Source of the DNA: an uncultured bacterium
Lineage (GTDB): Bacteria; Cyanobacteriota; Vampirovibrionia; Gastranaerophilales; Gastranaerophilaceae
Direction: 5' to 3'
Length of the DNA stretch: 64,000 bases
Assembly (NCBI GenBank): GCA_902802825.1
Contig: CADCNV010000001.1
Coordinates: 567-64,566 of the forward strand
Translations under genes and position numbers: made by a program
Part shown: piece by piece, positions 2 through 32,826 of the stretch
Numbering within the stretch: the first letter of the stretch is position 1
Layout: the number at the start of each line of letters is the position of its first letter
Notes under the pieces: model-generated
The model's input: only the letters and a program-made list of their open reading frames with translations
Database searches by the model: none
What the model was told of the DNA's origin: nothing

Positions 2-1207
2 GAAAGCATATATAGTACGAGTACGAAATATACTCCGAGCAGTGTTGCAAAGGATTGTTGTGCAGGGAGTGGTAAAGGTTTAGTGCAGACCGCTTCGAAT
101 TGGCAGAAGTATTGTTGCGGAATGATAAATAGTGAACATAGTTGGTCGTTTCCAATGAGTGGTTCGAATGGTTCTTGTTGTGAGAAGCGTAAAACTTCAA
201 ATACGGGTGTTTATGTATACGATCCTTATTATATAGATCATGCTTGCCCTGCGGGCGGGGAGAAGAATGCATGTTCGGCTTATGGTTATGCTGCCTTTGG
301 CTTTGTATGTCAAAATGATGATAAATGTAGTGCCTGGAAATCATTCCCGAATGATGTAAGTTTATCTGACAGTGAAAAGCAATCCTGTTGTTATGGGAGT
401 GATCACCCTCAATGTAAACCAAGCTGCGAAGTTGCAGGTGCCTGGGGCGAAATGAATTGTTGGCGAAGTGGTGAAAACTTTATATGCGAAGCAAAAGGGT
501 ATTCTCCGGCAGGAGCTTTCCCATTATTTGTCAATGGTGGTCAATATTCTTACGGATTCCCAACAAATAGTCCTACTTCCTATGCAGCTCAGCAATCTAG
601 GGCGATACCAAAGGATTTTACGTCTGTACCTGTTGGAGTATTTTATCCTTCAAATAATGCTCCGACAGGTACAGTTTCAGCTTCAGGTCTCAACACTTGC
701 TACGGTTTTACGGCTAAGTTTTCTGTTTCAAACAGTTGCGTATTAAGTGGTTCAATTACTTCAAATTATCAGGGAGACGGTTGTCCAAAAGTTTGTTCGA
801 CTTCATCTTTCACATTAAATTGTTCCGGAACTTATACAAATAATTCTTCATATTATCCGAATATACTCGGCACGAATGTTCATTGCCAAGCATCAGGTTG
901 TCCCGGTGTCGAAAATTCATATACTCCGTACGTTGGAAAAAGTGTTTGGGGTGCTGTTTTCTATACGAAATCTGAGTTATCTAATGGCAGTTATCTATAC
1001 GAGAGTGGATCCTATGCTTTAACAGATGGTGATACTAAAGAATGGGATTGGCGAGGAACGTGGAATGGTGCTGCTATTCAAAAATGTCAAATTGTTCAGG
1101 GGAATAAAGGAAGCGGGCAAACTTTGAAAACTGTTCAAGCGGATTGTGATGGCGGGCCATGTACGAATGGTAAAACCCCTAATCATTGTTCTATTTCATA
1201 TCCTTAA
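2..1207 (+). CDS. Cys-rich hypothetical protein; 5' end lies outside the window
   Basis: The frame of ORF 83..1207 stays open back to base 2, so the listed GTG start is probably internal. About 25 Cys including several CC pairs. Rich in Gly, Ser, Thr, Tyr and Asn. No family recognised. Confidence 0.5.
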   Translation, partial: ESIYSTSTKYTPSSVAKDCCAGSGKGLVQTASNWQKYCCGMINSEHSWSFPMSGSNGSCCEKRKTSNTGVYVYDPYYIDHACPAGGEKNACSAYGYAAFGFVCQNDDKCSAWKSFPNDVSLSDSEKQSCCYGSDHPQCKPSCEVAGAWGEMNCWRSGENFICEAKGYSPAGAFPLFVNGGQYSYGFPTNSPTSYAAQQSRAIPKDFTSVPVGVFYPSNNAPTGTVSASGLNTCYGFTAKFSVSNSCVLSGSITSNYQGDGCPKVCSTSSFTLNCSGTYTNNSSYYPNILGTNVHCQASGCPGVENSYTPYVGKSVWGAVFYTKSELSNGSYLYESGSYALTDGDTKEWDWRGTWNGAAIQKCQIVQGNKGSGQTLKTVQADCDGGPCTNGKTPNHCSISYP

Positions 1208-1214
1208 TAAGCTT

Positions 1215-1235
1215 GTAGGTTGGGTGGAACCCAAC
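1215..1235 (+). repeat. GTAGGTTGG-type hairpin repeat (copy a)
   Basis: gtag + gttggg / tggaa / cccaac. It is preceded by agcttgtag, as is copy b. Confidence 0.7.
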
Positions 1236-1328: not shown

Positions 1329-1352
1329 GTAGGTTGGGCATACCTGCCCAAC
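1329..1352 (+). repeat. GTAGGTTGG-type hairpin repeat (copy b)
   Basis: gtag + gttgggca / tacc / tgcccaac. Confidence 0.7.
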
Positions 1353-5522: not shown

Positions 5523-5867
5523 CTATTTTGAAACTGTTTCAAAAATTACATCAAATGCTTCAGAATCTCTTACTGCCATATCAGCAAGCATTTTTCTGTT
5601 TACAACAACATTTGCTTTTTTGCATGCATTTACGAATTTTGAATAGCTCATACCGCGTTGTCTTACTGCTGCGTTGATTCTTACAATCCACAATCTTCTC
5701 ATATTGCGTTTTGTAGTACGACGATCTCTGTAAGCATACTTAAGTGCTTTCATTACAGCGATGTTTGCTACTTTAAAGATTCTGCTTCTTGCACCAATAA
5801 AACCTTTAGCAAGTTTTAATATTTTTTTGTGCCTTTTAACACCGGCACTACCACGTCTAATTCTCAT
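5523..5867 (-). CDS. rplT: 50S ribosomal protein L20
   Basis: 114 aa. [23 protein letters not shown]...YAYRDRR is a canonical L20 sequence. Confidence 0.95.
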
Positions 5868-5878
5868 TTTTCATGCTC

Positions 5879-6088
5879 CTATCTTGAATACTTCTTGTAT
5901 GGTAACTCTTTAGATACCAGTGCTACATGTGACTCAGAAACGTCAACCATCTTGAAAATTCTGCGTTTTCTTGATGCTGACTTGTGTTGGAGCAAGTGGC
6001 CGATGCCTGCTTGTCTTTTCATAATTTTGCCGCTTGCAGTAACTTTATAACGTTTTGCTGCGGATCTGTGTGTTTTTAATTTTGGCAT
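5879..6088 (-). CDS. rpmI: 50S ribosomal protein L35
   Basis: 69 aa. MPKLKTHRSAAKRYKVTASGKI... An aaggag SD lies upstream. No infC precedes it. Confidence 0.95.
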   Translation of the reverse strand: MPKLKTHRSAAKRYKVTASGKIMKRQAGIGHLLQHKSASRKRRIFKMVDVSESHVALVSKELPYKKYSR

Positions 6089-6109: not shown

Positions 6110-6133
6110 GTTGGCGCATCAACGCCAACCTAC
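6110..6133 (-). repeat. GTAGGTTGG-type hairpin (copy c) in the rpmI leader
   Basis: The minus strand reads gtag gttggcg ttgatg cgccaac. The hairpin base lies 21 nt upstream of the rpmI ATG, just before the SD. Confidence 0.7.
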
Positions 6134-6342
6134 GTACATCTTCTTCGCTTCATAGGCATACCAAGGCCTATTTCGGCTGTGTGTTCATATTAGTATGAAC
6201 ATATTTCTTTTGCAATAGGTTTATTCCAAATTTTGAATCACAACCTTTATAATGTAACAATTCCTTAACAATAACCAATAATTTTCTAAAGTTTTAATTA
6301 AATATGCCGATTATTCATTTGTAAGGAAACAAGGGATTAACT

Positions 6343-8941: not shown

Positions 8942-10247
8942 TTATTTGTTCATTTCTTTTACGATTTTATCTGCTTCTTCTTTGGTTAAGCCGGTTGCAG
9001 CTACTGACGTTTCTACTGAACCATCTGCTTTTTTGCATGTTGTAATAATTTTGTAACCATTTGAAGTTTTTTCTGTTCTTGTTTTATTTTTTGCTTCCTG
9101 GCTTACTCCTTTAGTTTTGTCATATTTTGATTTTTGAACTTTATTGTCCTGATATTTAGCACCGCCGAGTTCTTTTGGTAACTGTTCAGGGAAATAATAT
9201 GCATCATATAATGTTTTCCCTTTTTGTTCTATTCTTGGGATAATTGTTTTGCCTGAAGCATCCTGACCTGATTTTGGTAAACCCATTTGTTCTCTGATGT
9301 ATTCACGAACTTTTTTGTTTTGTTCAGGGTCTTTAATACCGTATTTTGCTTCGATTACTTTGTCAAGACGGTCACCTGCCTGCATTTTATATGCAATATT
9401 TTTTATTTCTTTTTTAGTTACATCTTCTTTTGCCGTTGCCTTGCAATCTTTTTCAGGATTTGCAGGGGCTACAGGTGCTGCTCCATTGCTGCATCCTTTG
9501 CAATCTTTGAGTAAATATGCTGCGCCTGCGAGAAGCAATAACGGAATACCCCATTTACCTAATTTTTTGCCAAATTTACCAAGTTTCCCAAAGAACCCTG
9601 ATTTTGGTGTCGCATTTGGTTTTGGACCAGGAGCCGGAGTAGGTTTTGGTCCCGGAGCCGGATTTGGTTTTGGACCTTCGACCGGAGCTTGAATCGGAGC
9701 CGGAGTTGGGAGCCGGATTTGGTTTTGGACCTTCGACCGGAGCTTGAATCGGAGCCGGAGTTGGTTTTGGTGTTGGCTTCTCAATCAAAGCCGGTAAATT
9801 AGGAGTTGGTTTTACCACAGGAATTGGATTTGCATCTTTATATCCAAAACTTCTCCACCATTCAGCTGTTTCCGGAGTTACAGGTATTTTTGCCCCTTTA
9901 AAAGGTTCAAAAGGACAAGTTGCAGTGACTGTTCCTTTAGCAGCTTTTCTGTTTTCAGCTTTGCGCAAACTTTTTTGTAATTCGCTTTCGCCTTTGTTTA
10001 TTCCTAATCTTTCATCAATGGCTGCTGCACTTACTTCAGGTCTTTCTTTTAGGCATTTACCAATATAACTTTTAACCCTTTTGCCTGCTTCAGCTTGGGA
10101 CATAATTCTTCCTGTAACCGGATCTTGCGCTCTTATGCCGTATATTGCATTCTGCGTATTTTTTGCTTCCGATTTAGAAATAACTCTTCCGGTTTTCGGA
10201 TTTTTTGCATAAACATGATAATTGACGATGTCATTGATAGAAACCAT
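8942..10247 (-). pseudogene. LysM-like/proline-rich single-pass membrane protein gene, frameshifted by a 55-bp tandem duplication
   Basis: ORFs 9576..10247 and 8942..9784 overlap in different frames, and both encode PTPAPIQAPVEGPKPNPAP. Removing one 55-bp copy fuses them into one 416-aa ORF. aaggagg SD before 10247. Confidence 0.75.
9655..9764. repeat. Perfect 55-bp tandem direct repeat (2 copies)
   Basis: gagccggatttggttttggaccttcgaccggagcttgaatcggagccggagttgg occurs at 9655-9709 and again at 9710-9764. Confidence 0.95.
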
Positions 10248-10329
10248 TTTAATTCCTCCTTAAATCCCCTATAAAATTTTTAGTATCCCCTATGTTTTTA
10301 TAAACAATTTTTGTAAGTAAAAATTGACT

Positions 10330-10372
10330 AAAAAAAATCAAAGAATTCCAACACTAGGTTGAAATCCTTTGA
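10330..10372 (-). terminator. Intrinsic terminator after pgpH
   Basis: 15-bp stem. It is perfect with two G-U pairs only when read on the minus strand, where a U-run follows (A-run 10330-10337 on the plus strand). Confidence 0.7.
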
Positions 10373-10412
10373 TAATCATTATTTTACAAACTTAACAATT
10401 TTTAATAATTAT

Positions 10413-12563
10413 TTATAGTGTATGAAAATTGTCATTTTCTTCTTCGGGCTTATCTGAGGGGGCTATGGTTTTTGAGGCCTCCAACTCTTTTATTTTATTC
10501 TCTAAATCACTGTCAAGAGCTTGCGCAGGTATATCTATTTTGTTTTTCTTGAATTCTTTTGCAATATCTTCCTGATATTTAATTCTGTCATGCTGCATGC
10601 CTCTTAATACTCTATTAAATGTTGTAGCTATGATTTTGATATCTTTAAGTGTAAGCGGGCTGTCCTCCAATTGTCCGTCATCCAAGCGTTCTGTAATAAT
10701 TTTGTTGATAATATTCCCGATTTCTTCTGATGTTGCGCCTTTCATTGCTCTGACTGCGGATTCTACCGCGTCTGCAATCATAAGAATGGCTGTTTCTTTG
10801 GAATTTGGTTTTGGTCCTGTGTAGCGGAATTGCTGGAGTATAAAATCATTTATAATACTTGGTAATCCGTATTCTTTTGCAAGCTCAACCCCATCTTTTG
10901 TGTGTGCGGTAATAACCATTTTACTTAATCTCGGGGTCAAATTGTTGTGTGGGTTTTCTATACTGAAATAAGATTGATTTTCTACAAAGAATAAAGGACG
11001 TTTAAGTTTCCCTATATCATGGTAAAACGCTCCGACTCTTGCCAAAATCGGATTGGCTCCGATTGCTTCCGCTGCAGCTTCACATAAAGTAGAAACCATC
11101 AGACTGTGGTGATATGTTCCGGGTGCTTCCATCTGAAGCCGTTTCAGCAACGCCTGATTGTGATCACCTAATTCTGCCAATCCGTATGGAGTAATAATAT
11201 GAAAAGTACTTTCTAATAGCGGAGATAGTCCCAAAGCCAAAATGGAACTTATTAATGTGTTTATAAATATAAATGTACAATCTTTTATAATCAAATAGTT
11301 GTCAACATCGATTAAGCATTTGTCAATCAAATACAAACTCAGCATGATGAGTACTCCTGCTATACCCAAATGAAATCCGAGTTTGATGAGGTCAAAACGT
11401 CTTGTATATTTTATTTTTGAAGTCGTTATCATAGAAATTAGTGACAAAAGTATGAATACAACGATAAATTGTGATTTGTACTGAATACCGGTTGTCATTA
11501 TTGATAAAATTAAAGTAGATAACAAAAATGCAATTCTCGGATTTAAAAATATTGATGCAATAATGACAACTGCAGGAATAGGGATTACATAAGGTGAAAA
11601 TCCTGTTGGCAGCAGAACTCCTGTTGCGCATGCAATTATTGACAAAACTGCAGACAAAGATAAATAACGCGGTTCATTATATTTTTTTTCAAAAAATTTC
11701 AGATATGCAAGATATATGATACTTATAACAAATACAAGAATATAAACCGATAAAACACCCTGCCAATTAAGTTCATATACGTTATACCCTGCTTCTCTGA
11801 GGGCATCTCTTTTTAATCTTGTGATTGGTTCGCCTTTGTCAACAATTTGTTCATCTTTTTCAAATGTAACCATATATGGTTTTACTGATTGTTGTGCATT
11901 TAATTTCGCAAGTTCTGTTGCGGCATCATCAACAACAAGATTCGGAACAATTACTTGCTCTAATATTGCGCATATTACGGCAACCTGTCGTTTGGAAACA
12001 TTGCTGACTAAGTTATTTAATATAATTTTATTAACATTATCTTTACTGTAATCGGTTTCAGTAATCCCTTTTTGCAGGATATTGTTAAGTGACAAAGATG
12101 CTTTGTCAAAGGCCTCGCGTAAGCTTTCTTCATCGACATTTAAAAGAAAATTGACTATAAAGTCCTGTTTGGGGTTGTCAGTAAGATCTAAAAGTATATT
12201 TATTTTATTAATCTTTTCTTTGTCTGTTATATCTTTTTCTCTTATTTGAAAAATAGCATTTTGAAGTGTTTTGAGATTGGACTTAATAAAATCGTCTTCT
12301 GCAGGTACAAGTTTTGGTTCAACCTTTTTTACGGCATCTCTTTTGTGTGCCTTTGTTCTTTCAATATCTTCAACGGTTATTGTTTTTTGAGCAATAATCT
12401 CTTTTTTGCTTTTACCGTTTTCAATTACGTTCTGGAAAAAGAAGTTTTGAGAAGATATTATTGCAGTAATTACAAGAGTAAAACATATCAAATAGAAGAA
12501 TTTGATAAACTTTGAAGAAGTGAAAAACTCTCTCGCTGCTTCTAAATATTCAATTTTAGCCAT
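10413..12563 (-). CDS. pgpH: 7TM-HD (HDIG) membrane phosphohydrolase, PgpH/YqfF family
   Basis: Extracellular N-domain, 7 TM segments, HD domain (GTYHHS, FYHDIGK, FRYTGPKP, IADAVESAVR). The expected HHG-containing segment before FRY appears to be absent. Confidence 0.8.
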   Translation of the reverse strand: MAKIEYLEAAREFFTSSKFIKFFYLICFTLVITAIISSQNFFFQNVIENGKSKKEIIAQKTITVEDIERTKAHKRDAVKKVEPKLVPAEDDFIKSNLKTLQNAIFQIREKDITDKEKINKINILLDLTDNPKQDFIVNFLLNVDEESLREAFDKASLSLNNILQKGITETDYSKDNVNKIILNNLVSNVSKRQVAVICAILEQVIVPNLVVDDAATELAKLNAQQSVKPYMVTFEKDEQIVDKGEPITRLKRDALREAGYNVYELNWQGVLSVYILVFVISIIYLAYLKFFEKKYNEPRYLSLSAVLSIIACATGVLLPTGFSPYVIPIPAVVIIASIFLNPRIAFLLSTLILSIMTTGIQYKSQFIVVFILLSLISMITTSKIKYTRRFDLIKLGFHLGIAGVLIMLSLYLIDKCLIDVDNYLIIKDCTFIFINTLISSILALGLSPLLESTFHIITPYGLAELGDHNQALLKRLQMEAPGTYHHSLMVSTLCEAAAEAIGANPILARVGAFYHDIGKLKRPLFFVENQSYFSIENPHNNLTPRLSKMVITAHTKDGVELAKEYGLPSIINDFILQQFRYTGPKPNSKETAILMIADAVESAVRAMKGATSEEIGNIINKIITERLDDGQLEDSPLTLKDIKIIATTFNRVLRGMQHDRIKYQEDIAKEFKKNKIDIPAQALDSDLENKIKELEASKTIAPSDKPEEENDNFHTL

Positions 12564-12684: not shown

Positions 12685-15600
12685 CTATCTTCTTTTTCTG
12701 CCATTTTGTGCAGAAGATGCGGCATTCACTTTTTGAGAACGTCTTTTTGAATCAATAGCGCCATCTTTATTGAATCTTGCAAGTTTAACATCGGATTTGT
12801 CTGTTGTATCGAATTTTGCATATACTTTTGCATATTCATTTGCCATTGCAACATCATTAGGATTGTTTCCGTTTAATTCTGCATTTAGTGAAGATTGATT
12901 AAAGCCGGTACTGATATCCTTGGTTGATGGTTGAGGAATGTATGCAGTGTTATTAAAGCTGTTATTATTGATGTTTTCTTGATTATTATTTTGGTCTTGA
13001 TTTAAAGTGTTTTCACCTGAATTTTGTTTTTCTTCGTCAGAAATTATATGTGCTTCTTTTTCAGCAGGCAAATTATCCATTTTATCAAGTTTTGCTTTTG
13101 CGATGTTTTTTTCTGCTTTAGACATATTTTTTTGTTGTTCAATTCTTGATTTTGACTGATCTTGGAGTTGTTTATTATTATCATCAATTTTGTGTTCAAC
13201 ATTATCGCTTACAAGCTTGGCTGCTACGCCTGTTGCCGCAACGGCAGCATTTTGTATAAGAGTTTTTGCCCATAATGCAGCAAGAGGCCAGCACCATGGC
13301 CCTCCTGCCATAAGTATTGCAATTAATGCAGTAATTATTCCTTGTGCGACAATCGTTTCTGCTATAATGACGTCTCCGACTGCGTCATTATTATCATTTC
13401 TTTCTGTTAATTTAGTATTAAGGTCATTAAACCCTTTTGATGAAAGGTTCGATTCTTTCATTGTTTTTAGAACTTTTGATTTTGGTTCTTCAATTGAAGA
13501 TAAAAGTTTTTCATCTTTTTGTGCCATGAGTGAAACTTGTTTGCGAATGACACTTTTTGCACCTGCTGTCGGGTCTTCATATTCAACAATGTCTTCTTCT
13601 TTCATTTTGCCTGACTGAACAAGTTTTATTTGGTTTTGGTACATTGCAAATTGATAATCAATTGCTGCATTTTGCAGTTCTTTAAGCTGTTGAGTATAAA
13701 TTTTTGATTGAGCAAAATTTTTATCGTGTTCAGCTTTTATTTGATTAGCTTTGGTCGTTAATGCCTTTGATGCATCTTCTGCAGATTTTGCATCCTTGTC
13801 AGCAAGTTCTCCGCTTTCGTCAACTATACCCTTTTTAGAGTATAAATCAAGTATTGACAGTCCGACAATAGCTGCCCATTTAAGAATTGCAAAAGTGAAA
13901 CTCGCAGGCCCAAGCCCAATAAGAGATACAATATTATTTGCAACTACAAGTTTTACAAAATCGAAGTTATTTCCATATTCATCTTTTAATGATGCCTGAT
14001 GGTCTACAATTTCTTCTTTTTGATTATTTTTTTCCGTTTTATTTGTTTTCTCTGTGTTTGAAGTTGAATTATCTGATTTGGATGTTTTCTTTGTTTCGGT
14101 TACTTCAAATTTATGTGTGCCATTATAAGAAGAAATCAGATCTTCCGGTTGTCTTCCTTGTACTATGTTTTGTACTACATATTCTTTTAGATCTTCCGTA
14201 TTCGTGTCTGTTTGTCGATTTGTGGTCTCAGATGTTTCATTATCATCCGTGTCCGAATTAATAATAGTTTCGTTTTCATTAATTTCCTGTTCAGAATTTT
14301 GATTTGATACAAAATTTTCATTTTCTGGAATAATATCCTGTGTATTTGCATCAGGTTCAGCGATATTCTGAGGTTCTAATTCGGTATTCACACCAGGAAT
14401 TGCAGAATTAATTTTTGCAGTATCAACATTTGTTGTGTCTTCTTCATTTAAATTTGAATCGCTATTTGTGTTGTTTGTTTGGTTATTATTTAAAATAGTA
14501 TTATTAGTATTATTATCGTCTTCAGTTAAAACCGTAACATTGTTATTAATAGCATCATCAATATTGTTTTCAGATATAGTATTTGTATTGCTATTCACAA
14601 CAGCATCAGTGCTTTCTTCTGATATAGAATTGGTATCGTTATTAATAGTATTATCAATATTGTCTTCAGATATAGTATTGGTATCGTTATTAACAACGTT
14701 ATTTGTTTTTTCTTCTTCCTGAATTACTGATTTAGGGCTGTCTGTATTTTCTTTGTTTTCTTCTGTTTCAATTTCTGTATTGTTTATTATTTCATTTTCT
14801 GCGGATTCTTTTGTATTTTTATTCTCATCTGAAATATTTTGGGTGTTTGTAATGTCTGTTCCATTCTTCATTTCAGTTGATTCTGATTCTGAAGAATTTT
14901 TATTATTCAGGGTAATATCTTTTTGGTCAGATGTTATTTCTGCTAATATATTTGTTTGTGTCTGATTGTCAGTTTTAGTTGAAGTCGTTTCGTTTTGATT
15001 TTTGTTTTGGGAAACTTCGTCCTTATTTTCATTTTGTTCATCTGTATCTTTAACTTCTGTTTTATCTGTGCTAAAGGATTCGATGTCTAAAACATTTTCT
15101 ATATGTTCTGCAGTATGAGTGTATTCATCGGCAAAAGATATAATTTCTTTTGTTGTATCACTATTAATAATTACATTTGCTTCATTGCTTATATTTTCTA
15201 AGTCATGACCTATTTTTTCTGCAACTAAAGATAACTGAATATCATTTATTCCGCTCAGTCTATCTGCTAAAGATGAACTGGTTGTTGATGCCATTTTGTA
15301 TGCGTGTGCTCGGTGAAAAATGTTTAATCCGTCATCTAAATTTGATAAATTTGCTGCAGCATTGATTGTGCTTCCGGCTATATTTCTGCCTTCAGTAGTT
15401 TTATTTTGCAAATCATCTATTGAATCAAGAAAATCATCCAGTTGAACGGCATCATTTTGCATTTGTTTAATTATGTCGCTGTTTTTGTCGAGTTTCTTTG
15501 ATAATTTAGTATATTCTGCGTATTCGGAAGATGTTATTGTTCCTTCTTTTTTCTTCTTATCAAGTTCTTTCCATTCATTTACCATTTTTTCGGTTTTATC

Positions 15601-23114: not shown

Positions 23115-23559
23115 TATTTTTGTAAACATTATTTTCAAATTAATCAATTTTTACCCTTGAGCTTTCTTTCGATATATGCAAAAGAAAAGAAAGCAGGTAA
23201 AAGATGTGTGCTGATTGTGTGTTAGTTCAAAATGAAGAATTTGATGAAAATATTGTTGAAAAATACAATTCTGAATTTCAGCAAAAACGAATTGAAGCTT
23301 CAATGATCGACATTGTTGAAAATTTAGAAAAATTATATTTTTTATAATTATAGGGCAGTAAGCCACTAAGTTACTGAGCCCCAGGGCTTTTTAGATTATT
23401 AATATCAGTATTATTTACTTTATTCCAATTAATGATACTTTCCATTTATTTTAGAAGTTTTTATTTTACAAAAAGTATCTTTGGATTAAAATATTGTTGT
23501 AAACTGATAAAATAGGTCGGCTTTGTTACGTCGGCAAAGTTAAATAAGGAGAAAGTTTT

Positions 23560-25578: not shown

Positions 25579-25806
25579 TTAATCGAATACGTAGCTGATT
25601 ATAGCTGCTTCTCTAGCTTGCTTGATAGCTTTTGCAATCATTCTCTGGTGTTTTGCACAGTTGCCTGTGATTCTTCTCGGAATGATTTTTCCTGCTTCTG
25701 TTAAGTATCTTCTTAATTTAGAAGCATCTTTGTAATCGATTGATTCGATTTTGTCAGCACATAATGAACAATTTTTGTGCTTTTTCTTATCGTCTGCTTT
25801 TGCCAT
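25579..25806 (-). CDS. rpsR: 30S ribosomal protein S18
   Basis: The start is reassigned to ATG 25806 (MAKADDKKK..., 75 aa). The listed extension to 25860 translates the upstream hairpin repeat. Confidence 0.9.
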   Translation of the reverse strand: MAKADDKKKHKNCSLCADKIESIDYKDASKLRRYLTEAGKIIPRRITGNCAKHQRMIAKAIKQAREAAIISYVFD

Positions 25807-25841
25807 GTTTCTATTTGCCTTTCTAGCCCTTATTATCTGTT

Positions 25842-25865
25842 GTTGGGCAAGTATGCCCAACCTAC
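25842..25865 (-). repeat. GTAGGTTGG-type hairpin (copy d) upstream of rpsR
   Basis: The minus strand reads gtag gttgggca tact tgcccaac. Confidence 0.75.
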
Positions 25866-25881
25866 CTTTCTTAATTTTTTA

Positions 25882-26038
25882 CATTGGCTTTCGCCTTTAT
25901 TCCGCCTGTGCAATCAAAGATTGCTTCGTTCGCTTCATTATCATTTCGCTCACAACGGCGGTGGTATTATGTTTCGTGCCCTGCTTGTCTTGCTAATCGC
26001 AAGCCAACACCGGCACTTCACATCGGCTTTCGCCTTTA
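25882..26038. repeat. GC-rich hairpin-module insert D between ssb and rpsR, bounded by an 18-bp direct repeat
   Basis: cat(t/c)ggctttcgccttta occurs at 25882-25899 and 26021-26038. The second copy contains the ssb stop codon. The interior shares a ~45-nt module with element C. Confidence 0.65.
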
Positions 26039-26449
26039 GAACGGAATTTCTCCGTCATCCATCAAAACTTCTGTTTCGGAAGCTCCTGATGGTTCCATAT
26101 CTCCAAAACTCAGGATGTCGCCTTCTTCGTGTACTTCTGATGATGATGAACTCCCGCCCATTAATTCGATTGATGATGCTTCAATTTCAAAAACTTTCTT
26201 TTCTGTTCCGTCATCAAGTTTGCTTACCCCTGTTTGAAGTCTTCCGCCAACCAAAACTTTTTGATTTTTTGAAAGAGTATCAATTACATCAGAAAGCGCT
26301 TGTCTTTTTGATATTACTCTGACTAATGTTTCTTCTCCGCCTTCGCCGATATTCATAACAAAAGAAGATACTGCAACATTATTCTGCGTATATCCTGTTT
26401 TTGGTTCTCTGTATACTATGCCTGTTACGGCTGCTTTTGCTAAAGTCAT
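26036..26449 (-). CDS. ssb: Single-stranded DNA-binding protein
   Basis: OB-fold N-terminus and an acidic tail ending DDGEIPF. The start is reassigned to ATG 26449 (MTLAKAAVTG...) with an aggaag SD. Confidence 0.9.
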   Translation of the reverse strand: MTLAKAAVTGIVYREPKTGYTQNNVAVSSFVMNIGEGGEETLVRVISKRQALSDVIDTLSKNQKVLVGGRLQTGVSKLDDGTEKKVFEIEASSIELMGGSSSSSEVHEEGDILSFGDMEPSGASETEVLMDDGEIPF

Positions 26450-26468
26450 ATATACTTCCTTTATCGTT

Positions 26469-26492
26469 GTCGGCATAGTAATGCCGACCTAC
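26469..26492 (-). repeat. GTAGGTYGG-type hairpin (copy e) between rpsF and ssb
   Basis: The minus strand reads gtag gtcggcat tact atgccgac. The loop is the same as in copy d. Confidence 0.75.
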
Positions 26493-26517
26493 TTCCTTTA
26501 TCTGTCGGGAATGTTTA

Positions 26518-26817
26518 TTATACAGAAGCTTTTTCTGAAACTTCCATGAACATTGTTCTTAAAATGTTATCATTCAATCTTAATTGTCTTTTAAATTCTG
26601 CAACTTTATCAGCAGGTAATGAAAGTATTGTTGTCGTAAAATATCCGTCTCTGAAATTCTGGATATCATAAGCCAGTTTTTTTCTTCCTGCTTTATCAAC
26701 AGATTCAACGCTTCCGCCAAAATCAGTAATTACTGAATTGATTTTTTCAATAATTTTTTCAACTTCTTCAGTGTCAAGATTTGGCTTGAATACGCTCATT
26801 AATTCGTATTTTCTCAT
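26518..26817 (-). CDS. rpsF: 30S ribosomal protein S6
   Basis: MRKYELMSVFKPNLD... is a canonical S6 sequence. 99 aa. Confidence 0.95.
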   Translation of the reverse strand: MRKYELMSVFKPNLDTEEVEKIIEKINSVITDFGGSVESVDKAGRKKLAYDIQNFRDGYFTTTILSLPADKVAEFKRQLRLNDNILRTMFMEVSEKASV

Positions 26818-32019: not shown

Positions 32020-32778
32020 CTATACCAATTCAGGAACTTTTACAGAATTTCTGTTAGCAATTTCAACCAAAGCTGAAATTGTAGCCATCATTGAAAGTTC
32101 TGAAGATAATTTATTAACACAAGAACCGCATCCGATAGCACTTGCGCCTGCTGCAAAAGCAAACGGTGCAGTTGTAGGATTGATACCTGTTGCTGTCATC
32201 ACAGGAATCTCAACGTTTCTGCAAAGTTCAATTGTATTTGAAATAGTTAATTCTGCTCTGTCCATCAATGCTCTTGCACCTGTCATTTCAGCGTGAGCAT
32301 GGTAATGTCCTTCAGTCTGAATCAAATCAATACCCATTTCTTCCAAATGATGCGCAAGTTCAATTTGTTCGGCTGTAGAAATTTCACCGGGGATTGTAAC
32401 ACAGAAAAATACATCACTGTCACCGATTAAAGATTTTGTTTCTTTAACGATGTTTAAAACTTCTTCAGCACTGAATGAACGACCTTCTTTATACAATGTA
32501 TCAAAGTTACCTACTTCCAAGCCGTCTGCTCCGAGTTCAACCGCTCTTGCAAGTTCTGACGGAACAACAGATGATACAAAAACAGGCATATCCGTCATTG
32601 AACGGATTTCTCTGACTATATCTTCTCTTGCACAGATATCAACTGCACTTGCACCTGATTTTTCTGCGGAAGTTACAACTTTTTTAATGTTTTCAATATC
32701 AAAATTATCAATACCTGCGATAATTTTTACTGCTCTTTTTTCTTCTAAATGATGTTTGAATAAATCAATTCTTGACAT
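32020..32778 (-). CDS. DUF561/Ycf23-like TIM-barrel protein
   Basis: KIIAGIDNFDIENIKKVVTSAEKSGASAVDICA resembles cyanobacterial/plastid Ycf23 (from memory). Confidence 0.6.
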   Translation of the reverse strand: MSRIDLFKHHLEEKRAVKIIAGIDNFDIENIKKVVTSAEKSGASAVDICAREDIVREIRSMTDMPVFVSSVVPSELARAVELGADGLEVGNFDTLYKEGRSFSAEEVLNIVKETKSLIGDSDVFFCVTIPGEISTAEQIELAHHLEEMGIDLIQTEGHYHAHAEMTGARALMDRAELTISNTIELCRNVEIPVMTATGINPTTAPFAFAAGASAIGCGSCVNKLSSELSMMATISALVEIANRNSVKVPELV

Positions 32779-32802: not shown

Positions 32803-32826
32803 GTTGGGCAAATATGTCCAACCTAC
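32803..32826 (-). repeat. GTAGGTTGG-type hairpin (copy f) in the ycf23-like leader
   Basis: The minus strand reads gtag gttggaca tatt tgcccaac. It is followed by the aaggag SD and ATG 32778. Confidence 0.7.

What the first reader, a model, noticed from the sequence alone, without database searches (positions are those of the whole stretch)
25842..26492. Conserved GTAGGTYGG hairpin placed just 5' of the Shine-Dalgarno sequence of four highly expressed genes
The same 24-nt element (gtag + 7-8-bp stem gttgg[gc].. + 4-6-nt loop) occurs in gene orientation at four sites:
- 26469-26492, between rpsF and ssb.
- 25842-25865, before rpsR.
- 6110-6133, before rpmI.
- 32803-32826, before the ycf23-like gene.
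In the rpmI, ssb and ycf23-like cases the hairpin base sits 19-24 nt upstream of the ATG, directly followed by the SD; the rpsR copy sits 35 nt upstream with only a weak SD. Stems vary by paired changes (gttgggca/tgcccaac, gtcggcat/atgccgac, gttggcg/cgccaac), while the single-stranded GTAG and the GGTYGG stem start are constant. No U-run follows, so these are not terminators. Candidate roles are a 5' stabiliser or RNase processing site in polycistronic mRNAs, or a binding site for a translational regulator. The hairpin also generates spurious N-terminal extensions of the rpsR and ssb ORFs.
Basis: seen in the sequence. Interest (0 to 1): 0.62.

Follow-up and report, generated by a model that had tools for sequence, protein, structure and literature searches.

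The report
REP hairpin repeats beside ribosomal genes
The hairpin seen in front of four genes is a copy of an ordinary bacterial REP repeat, a small mobile DNA palindrome spread by a RAYT transposase, here in an uncultured rumen relative of cyanobacteria. It is not a dedicated control element of those genes.

Summary
GTAGGTYGG plus a 7-8 bp GC-rich hairpin occurs six times in the window (0.22 expected). Four copies lie 19-35 nt before rpmI, rpsR, ssb and a DUF561/ycf23 gene. Two lie after a gene in a convergent spacer.

The element is a GTAG-tagged REP. The same 24-mer is dispersed in many Gastranaerophilales (Melainabacteria) gut and rumen MAGs. In 20 of 26 full-length RAYT loci examined it sits 24-31 nt upstream of a REP-associated tyrosine transposase gene (NCBIfam NF047646, 142 bits; best PDB match E. 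coli TnpAREP 4ER8).

The copies are not conserved operon features:
- 0 of 31 relatives have one before rpmI.
- Only 4-5 of 79, all closest relatives, have one at the rpsF-ssb or ssb-rpsR junctions.
- The ssb copy is a 37-nt presence/absence polymorphism within the species, and the empty allele keeps the same Shine-Dalgarno.

Across about 110 copies the commonest context is just after a stop codon. About 8% abut a start. A sense-strand orientation bias is real (22:6 and 9:0) and unexplained.

A side effect on mRNA is not excluded. This is a new member of a known kind, of low interest.

The parts
1215..1235 (+). REP copy (GTAG + 7-bp stem, 3-nt loop). It lies 8 nt after the stop of ORF 2..1207, in a convergent intergenic spacer.
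1329..1352 (+). REP copy GTAGGTTGGGCATACCTGCCCAAC in the same convergent spacer. It is identical to the REP that flanks RAYT genes in relatives.
6110..6133 (-). REP copy 21 nt upstream of the rpmI ATG (6088). It is inserted between a conserved leader motif (6155-6168) and the SD. It is absent at this position in 31 of 31 relatives.
25842..25865 (-). REP copy 35 nt upstream of the rpsR ATG (25806). It is shared only with the closest relatives (L208, L212, L219, L237) and decayed in L210.
26469..26492 (-). REP copy 19 nt upstream of the ssb ATG (26449) and 26 nt after the rpsF stop. It is a strain-level presence/absence polymorphism.
26453..26489 (.). The 37-nt segment missing from other strains. 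It comprises the REP body plus one copy of the 13-nt direct repeat TACTTCCTTTATC (26453-26465 and 26490-26502), which contains the ssb SD.
32803..32826 (-). Degenerate REP copy with one A.C mismatch in the stem, 24 nt upstream of the DUF561/ycf23-like ATG (32778), in a divergent spacer.
25579..26817 (-). The rpsF (26518-26817), ssb-like (26036-26449) and rpsR (25579-25806) operon that hosts two REP copies and a further hairpin-module insert.
5523..6088 (-). rpmI (5879-6088) and rplT (5523-5867), downstream of the rpmI REP copy.
32020..32778 (-). DUF561 (ycf23-like) gene downstream of the degenerate REP copy.

Best explanation
The six elements are copies of a GTAG-tagged REP (repetitive extragenic palindrome). 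The family is of the short perfect-palindrome type and belongs to Gastranaerophilales (non-photosynthetic cyanobacterial lineage) gut and rumen bacteria.

By homology with characterised systems, the single-stranded GTAG-plus-hairpin form is the substrate of a REP-associated tyrosine transposase (RAYT/TnpAREP, HUH/Y1 family). That enzyme binds the folded hairpin, needs the GTAG for cleavage, and is thought to disperse REPs through intergenic DNA.

Copies survive where they do no harm. That means mostly just after stop codons, and inside tight operons in the few bases between a stop and the next SD. This geometry puts some hairpins about 20-25 nt before an ATG. The four pre-SD copies in the window are lineage-specific insertions of this kind.

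Shown:
- The repeat family and its anatomy.
- Its dispersal in relatives.
- Its physical association with RAYT genes in related genomes.
- Insertion polymorphism.
- Absence from orthologous leaders.

Inferred:
- That a RAYT of this organism moves the copies.
- That the sense-strand bias comes from strand-specific ssDNA insertion or from selection on transcripts.
- Any effect on expression of the flanking genes.
For: Anatomy: GTAG followed by an 8-bp perfect GC-rich palindrome and a 3-4 nt loop, 21-24 nt in total. This matches the published definition of REPs (20-50 nt palindrome preceded by GTAG) and the group-3 type, such as the 23-nt S. maltophilia REP (PMC8266576). Published RAYT-linked REPs include GTAGGTTGGGC...GCCCAAC (Coxiella) and GTAGGTCGGCC...GGCCGAC (Thioalkalivibrio) (PMC2817692).

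Copy number: 6 in the window against 0.22 expected. The exact 24-mer pattern occurs in at least 120 8-kb blocks of public genomes, mostly Gastranaerophilales/Melainabacteria MAGs.

RAYT link:
- 178-183-aa genes sit directly downstream of the identical REP.
- They score 142 bits on NCBIfam NF047646 REP_Tyr_transpos (cutoff 80) and hit Pfam PF01797.
- The only PDB match found (E <= 0.001) is E. coli TnpAREP 4ER8, E = 4.6e-20.
- The HUH motif (HIHLIL) and the tyrosine motif (YIHYNPVKHG) are present.
- Of 26 full-length RAYT loci, 20 have the REP 24-31 nt before the ATG and 23 carry an inverted REP inside the ORF.
- An intact RAYT is present in RUG12313, whose rpsF is 95% identical to the window's.

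Context across about 110-120 copies matches published REP distributions (PMC3733652). Counts were 38 unidirectional sense, 21 convergent, 16 unidirectional antisense and 9 divergent. Distances to the upstream stop cluster at 0-75 nt.

Mobility and non-conservation:
- A 37-nt presence/absence polymorphism at the ssb copy is seen in 4 RNA runs, 1 DNA run and L208.
- 0 of 31 relatives have a REP before rpmI.
- 4 of 79 (rpsF-ssb) and 4-5 of 79 (ssb-rpsR) have one in the rpsF operon spacers, all among the nearest relatives and some decayed.
Against: No RAYT gene lies in the window. RUG11085, the same-species genome, did not appear among the RAYT hits. Laying contigs of the samples that hold this strain on two RAYT genes gave only short repeat matches and one 160-nt piece at 86% identity.

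Four of six window copies are start-proximal, against about 6% in relatives. That is more than the family average.

The ssb insertion is flanked by a 13-nt direct repeat. This is not expected for IS200/IS605-like single-strand transposition and is not seen at other copies.

No biochemical evidence exists for this RAYT/REP pair.
Confidence: 0.9

Rival explanations
1. One reading: a dedicated cis-acting RNA hairpin placed just 5' of the SD. It would act as a 5' stabiliser, an RNase processing mark or a regulator binding site, serving expression of highly expressed genes.
For: Four of six window copies lie 19-35 nt before an ATG in sense orientation, with the SD left unpaired in predicted folds. 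In relatives, 6 further copies sit 19-26 nt before an SD-led start and none does so in antisense. The RAYT genes themselves carry the REP 24-31 nt before their ATG. REPs are reported to affect mRNA stability and expression in E. coli (introductions of PMC8266576 and PMC3733652).
Against: Most copies are not near starts. Orthologous rpmI, ssb and rpsR leaders in most relatives lack the hairpin. A same-species genome and several strains lack the ssb copy yet keep the identical SD-ATG sequence. Retained copies decay, for example the tag GTAG to GCAG, stem mismatches, and the DUF561 copy, which barely folds. No Rfam family matches. RNA contigs run through the rpsR copy without a break, though contigs are poor evidence for RNA ends.
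Confidence: 0.06
2. A small repeat that spreads without a RAYT. Possible routes are recombination or gene conversion between copies, replication slippage, or an RNA intermediate as proposed for very small cyanobacterial dispersed repeats. On this reading the RAYT association would be incidental.
For: The one recent insertion caught (ssb) carries a 13-nt flanking direct repeat. Its 37 nt equal the hairpin plus the 3' flank seen in filled alleles of sister species (L215, L219), which looks like recombination. The window holds several other hairpin-module repeats with flanking duplications (note e1-4051222).
Against: The GTAG tag plus perfect palindrome is the signature of RAYT substrates. The identical sequence sits at a fixed distance upstream of RAYT genes in 20 of 26 loci, and its stem variant co-varies with the RAYT clade. 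The other roughly 130 copies show no flanking duplication beyond chance.
Confidence: 0.04

Closest known systems
Group-3-type REPs with their TnpAREP/RAYT, e.g. Stenotrophomonas maltophilia REPtron Sm (Corneloup et al. 2021, PMC8266576)
   Same: Both have a GTAG tag, an 8-bp perfect palindrome and a 3-4 nt loop, 23-24 nt in total. Both are dispersed in intergenic DNA. The cognate RAYT gene has the same REP next to it.
   Different: The host is a low-GC (35%) member of the Gastranaerophilales, not a proteobacterium. Copies are mostly single units rather than inverted pairs. The RAYT carries an inverted REP inside its ORF. No biochemistry exists for this pair.
RAYT-associated REPs of Coxiella burnetii (GTAGGTTGGGC...GCCCAAC) and Thioalkalivibrio (GTAGGTCGGCC...GGCCGAC) (Nunvar et al. 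2010, PMC2817692)
   Same: They share the same GTAGGTYGG head and first stem bases, and both are linked to a RAYT gene.
   Different: Loops and inner stems differ, and the phyla are different. Whether the similarity reflects common descent, transfer or convergence was not tested.
GTAG-tagged REP superfamily, including cyanobacterial families GTAG-12/15/16 (Di Nocera et al. 2013, PMC3733652)
   Same: All have an unpaired GTAG, a 6-13 bp stem with compensatory sub-families and tolerated G-T pairs. They lie mostly between unidirectional and convergent ORFs near 3' ends. The TAG of the tag sometimes serves as a stop codon. They cause spurious N-terminal ORF overlaps.
   Different: Those families were described in photosynthetic cyanobacteria (Anabaena, Nostoc, Cyanothece) and other phyla. 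I found no paper that describes them in Melainabacteria/Gastranaerophilales.
E. coli REP/BIME and RayT (YafM), PDB 4ER8
   Same: The Gastranaerophilales RAYT aligns over its whole length with 4ER8 (E = 4.6e-20). Both systems use a GTAG-headed hairpin as substrate.
   Different: E. coli REPs are longer imperfect palindromes with a bulge and are arranged in BIMEs. The protein here has an insertion of about 14 residues that encodes the inverted REP.

Membership tests
GTAG-tagged REP / RAYT (REPtron) system | Short (20-50 nt) palindrome preceded by a conserved unpaired GTAG | tested here: met
   All six copies have GTAG plus a 7-8 bp stem and a 3-4 nt loop. One copy has a stem mismatch.
GTAG-tagged REP / RAYT (REPtron) system | Many dispersed, mostly intergenic copies in the genome | tested here: inconclusive
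   There are 6 copies in 64 kb against 0.22 expected. Relatives carry many copies.
GTAG-tagged REP / RAYT (REPtron) system | Located mainly between unidirectional or convergent ORFs, close to 3' ends of genes | tested here: met
   In relatives plus the window: 38 unidirectional sense, 21 convergent, 16 unidirectional antisense and 9 divergent. Upstream-stop distances cluster at 0-75 nt. In the window itself, 2 copies are convergent, 2 are operon-internal and 2 are divergent.
GTAG-tagged REP / RAYT (REPtron) system | A cognate RAYT gene flanked by the same REP | tested here: met
   Met in related genomes: 20 of 26 full-length RAYT loci have the REP 24-31 nt upstream, including RUG12313, a close relative. 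It is not in the window, and the window's own genome was not searchable.
GTAG-tagged REP / RAYT (REPtron) system | The transposase has RAYT hallmarks: HUH motif, catalytic Tyr, RAYT-specific profile | tested here: met
   NF047646 scores 142 bits against a cutoff of 80, and PF01797 is hit. The motifs HIHLIL and YIHYNPVKHG are present. The only PDB match found (E <= 0.001) is 4ER8 TnpAREP.
GTAG-tagged REP / RAYT (REPtron) system | Evidence of mobility or turnover of copies | tested here: met
   The ssb copy is a 37-nt indel within the species, seen in both DNA and RNA runs. Copies are absent from orthologous sites in most relatives.
GTAG-tagged REP / RAYT (REPtron) system | RAYT binds and cleaves the single-stranded REP | not testable with these tools
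   This needs purified protein and ssDNA oligonucleotides.
Conserved cis-regulatory leader hairpin (r-protein leader or 5' stabiliser) | Conserved at the orthologous position upstream of the same gene in related genomes | tested here: not met
   rpmI: 0 of 31. rpsF-ssb: 4 of 79. ssb-rpsR: 4-5 of 79, only in the nearest relatives. The ssb copy is absent in the same species.
Conserved cis-regulatory leader hairpin (r-protein leader or 5' stabiliser) | Sits at a mature 5' end or processing site of the mRNA | not testable with these tools
   Only assembled RNA contigs were available. They run through the rpsR copy but cannot show RNA ends.
Intrinsic terminator | GC-rich hairpin followed by a U-run | tested here: not met
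   The hairpins are followed by A-rich sequence (AACAA, AACGA and similar) in all six copies.

The most novel reading that the evidence does not exclude
The subset of REP copies wedged 19-26 nt before start codons, always in sense orientation (9:0), including the copy before the RAYT gene itself, has been co-opted. These copies would act as RNA 5'-end protectors, processing marks or translation modulators in operons. On this reading the sense bias of the whole family reflects selection on transcripts rather than strand-specific insertion.
Probability: 0.12. Interest if true: 0.5.

Novelty: new member of a known kind. Interest (0 to 1): 0.24.

Why it matters
The result mainly serves annotation. 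It explains a recurring GC-rich hairpin, the false N-terminal extensions of rpsR and ssb, and contig breaks in assemblies of these rumen and gut bacteria. It extends the GTAG-REP/RAYT system to the non-photosynthetic cyanobacterial order Gastranaerophilales. I found no paper that describes it there.

It also provides a natural filled/empty allele pair at the rpsF-ssb junction. That pair could be used to measure what a REP directly upstream of an SD does to expression.

Tried and rejected
- Rfam at gathering thresholds gave no match anywhere in the window.
- tblastn of a RAYT against the window found only the REP stems themselves.
- An exact 50-mer of the window was not found in genome contigs. 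The same species was later found through rpsF as RUG11085 (L208).
- I laid contigs of four samples that hold this strain on RAYT genes of L012 and L045. This gave only short repeat matches plus one 160-nt piece at 86% in one sample, which is inconclusive for a RAYT in the window's own genome.
- Target-site duplication test: apart from the ssb copy (13 nt), flank matches are no longer than in mismatched controls.
- Replication-strand test: GC skew on the GTAG strand of 8-kb blocks was positive in 55 and negative in 44, which is no signal.
- 'REP carries its own SD': rejected for rpmI. The A-rich SD region is orthologous to the REP-less leaders of relatives, and the 3' flanks of start-proximal copies share nothing beyond a generic SD.
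- A REP-like string at 23512-23535 turned out to be a direct repeat, not a palindrome.
- My first strict regex missed copies with a GCAG tag in sister species. I corrected this with a relaxed scan.

Full report
**Observation**

Pfam confirms the neighbouring genes as rpmI (followed by rplT), rpsR, an SSB-family gene, rpsF and a DUF561/ycf23-like gene. The gap between the hairpin foot and the ATG is 21 nt (rpmI), 35 nt (rpsR), 19 nt (ssb) and 24 nt (DUF561).

GTAGGTYGG occurs six times in the window against 0.22 expected, and no shuffle reached six. The two extra copies, at 1215 and 1329 on the plus strand, lie after the stop of ORF 2..1207 in a convergent spacer. They are not in front of any gene.

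Five copies are perfect 7-8 bp hairpins. The DUF561 copy has an A.C mismatch in gene orientation and hardly folds better than shuffles. The spurious ORF extensions of rpsR and ssb are real.

**What it is**

An unpaired GTAG followed by a short GC-rich perfect palindrome is the published definition of a REP element. The 23-24 nt format with an 8-bp stem matches the 'group 3' REPs studied biochemically (PMC8266576). Nunvar et al. list RAYT-linked REPs that begin GTAGGTTGGGC (Coxiella) and GTAGGTCGGCC (Thioalkalivibrio) (PMC2817692).

Most hits are Gastranaerophilales/Melainabacteria MAGs from rumen and gut, with about 30-40% GC like the window at 35%. The rest are mostly Cellvibrio and other Proteobacteria.

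In several of these blocks the element is followed 27-29 nt later by an ORF starting MNYRR. Evidence that these proteins are RAYTs:
- They are 178 aa long.
- They score 142 bits on NCBIfam NF047646 'REP-associated tyrosine transposase' (cutoff 80) and hit Pfam Y1_Tnp.
- Their only PDB match at E <= 0.001 is E. coli TnpAREP, 4ER8.
- The HUH and tyrosine motifs are present.

A search for this protein in species-representative genomes returned 50 loci, nearly all Gastranaerophilales. In 26 full-length genes, 20 have the REP 24-31 nt upstream of the ATG. One intact RAYT is in RUG12313, whose rpsF is 95% identical to the window's.

No RAYT lies in the window.

**Are the copies regulatory parts of these operons?**

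I fetched the rpsF-ssb-rpsR region from 79 related species and the rpmI-rplT region from 31.
- None of the 31 has a REP before rpmI. The window's copy sits between a leader motif conserved in relatives (GGCYTTGGTATGCC) and an SD region that is orthologous to the REP-less leaders.
- Between rpsF and ssb, a REP-like hairpin exists in only 4 of 79 genomes, all with 94-96% rpsF identity. All four carry the tag mutated to GCAG.
- Between ssb and rpsR, one exists in 4-5 of 79, again only the nearest relatives. Several have G-T or mismatched stems, and one is collapsed.
- The same-species genome RUG11085 (L208, 99% rpsF identity) lacks the ssb copy.
- Contigs from four metatranscriptomes and one metagenome skip exactly 26453-26489. 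Near-identical strains in two other metagenomes keep that segment.
- The empty allele reads ...GATAAAGGAAGTATATATG, the same SD and start as in the window. So ssb is served by the same SD with or without the hairpin.

**Context statistics**

I analysed about 120 copies in low-GC loci plus the window, using a crude ORF caller. The counts were 38 between co-directional genes in sense, 16 in antisense, 21 convergent and 9 divergent. Distance to the upstream stop clusters at 0-75 nt, while distance to the next start is broad.

A stricter test required an SD, a start codon and an ORF of at least 60 codons. It found 9 of 107 copies within 45 nt upstream of a start in sense and none in antisense. Three of the nine are the window's. 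It also found 22 against 6 within 45 nt after an ORF stop.

This is the distribution published for GTAG REPs: mostly downstream of genes, in unidirectional or convergent spacers, with the TAG sometimes used as a stop and with apparent N-terminal ORF overlaps (PMC3733652). Several start-proximal copies, such as the ssb copy (26 nt after the rpsF stop) and the two in L111, fill short operon spacers. There, any surviving insertion must lie between a stop and the next SD, which would account for a narrow spacing; the rpmI and DUF561 copies lie in divergent spacers, so this does not cover every case.

**Mechanism**

- Shown: family membership by anatomy, dispersal, RAYT association in relatives, and turnover.
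- Inferred from the E. coli, Stenotrophomonas and Marinomonas work (PMC8266576): the RAYT recognises the folded top strand and needs GTAG for cleavage.

The sense-strand bias is real but unexplained. It could come from strand-specific insertion into the lagging-strand template, as for IS200/IS605 relatives (PMC6006769 abstract). It could also come from selection on transcripts. GC skew in 8-kb blocks gave no signal.

The single recent insertion has a 13-nt flanking direct repeat, and no such repeat is seen at other copies. Its 37 nt equal the hairpin plus the 3' flank present in sister species' filled alleles. This points to recombination between alleles or an atypical insertion, and I leave it open.

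**Comparison and novelty**

This is a GTAG-REP/RAYT system of a known kind in a lineage where I found no published description. That note is not independent evidence.

A regulatory side effect of individual copies remains possible, since REPs are reported to influence mRNA fate. Nothing here requires one, and the natural empty allele argues that the hairpin is dispensable.

**Side observation**

In 23 of 26 RAYT genes an inverted copy of the REP lies inside the ORF at about codon 85. It encodes VGQVCPT(Y/D) or VGVETPTY, within a stretch that is an insertion relative to E. coli TnpAREP. Its stem variant matches the REP upstream of the same gene: GGGCA/TGCCC in one clade and GGGGT/ACCCC in another. 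Other agents of this scan noted similar in-gene REPs in Clostridia.

Noticed in passing
L119:5376-5909, L126:10001-10531 (internal copy 10259-10282), L288-L318: RAYT genes of Gastranaerophilales carry a complete inverted REP inside the ORF at about codon 85 (VGQVCPTY or VGVETPTY), in 23 of 26 genes. Its stem variant matches the REP 24-31 nt upstream of the same gene. The segment is an insertion relative to E. coli TnpAREP.
   Followed up: partly
window 26453-26502: The ssb REP insertion is flanked by a 13-nt direct repeat (TACTTCCTTTATC) that contains the SD. The other roughly 130 copies examined have no such duplication. The 37 inserted bases equal the hairpin plus 3' flank of filled alleles in sister species (L215, L219). 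The origin is unexplained.
   Followed up: partly
window 6155-6168 (minus strand GGCCTTGGTATGCC): A motif GGCYTTGGTATGCC upstream of rpmI is conserved in many relatives' leaders (L128-L155). It is a better candidate for a real rpmI-rplT leader element, such as an L20 autoregulation site. There was no Rfam hit at gathering score.
   Followed up: no
L007, L014, L019, L021, L049, L050, L068, L070; L005, L047, L041: The same 24-nt REP core occurs in Cellvibrio and other Proteobacteria, often as inverted pairs 20-80 nt apart (REPIN-like). It also occurs in a 65% GC betaproteobacterial MAG and in Planctomyces. Whether this reflects transfer of the RAYT or convergence was not examined.
   Followed up: no
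window 25882-26038: A hairpin-module insert between ssb and rpsR is itself a repeat. Metagenome contigs match parts of it at higher depth, with unrelated flanks. It is bounded by a near-duplicate CAT(T/C)GGCTTTCGCCTTTA.
   Followed up: no
L009:436, L030:6790, L088:604/1908/3138: The REP also forms the head of a longer repeat (...AGCTTGTAGGTTGGGCATACCTGCCCAACGATAAAAYTGGACATTAWTTGGA...) that recurs within and between genomes.
   Followed up: no
L111:2695 and L111:1448: In a relative's ribosomal-protein operon, two REPs fill whole intergenic spacers. The TAG of the GTAG tag serves as the stop codon of the upstream gene, and the next ATG follows about 21-23 nt after the hairpin.
   Followed up: no
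L125-L127 (RAYT at 10001-10531; rpsF at 14106): In three BRZ/ONAT Gastranaerophilales assemblies the RAYT gene lies about 3.5 kb upstream of the rpsF-ssb-rpsR operon. The window has different genes at that position.
   Followed up: no
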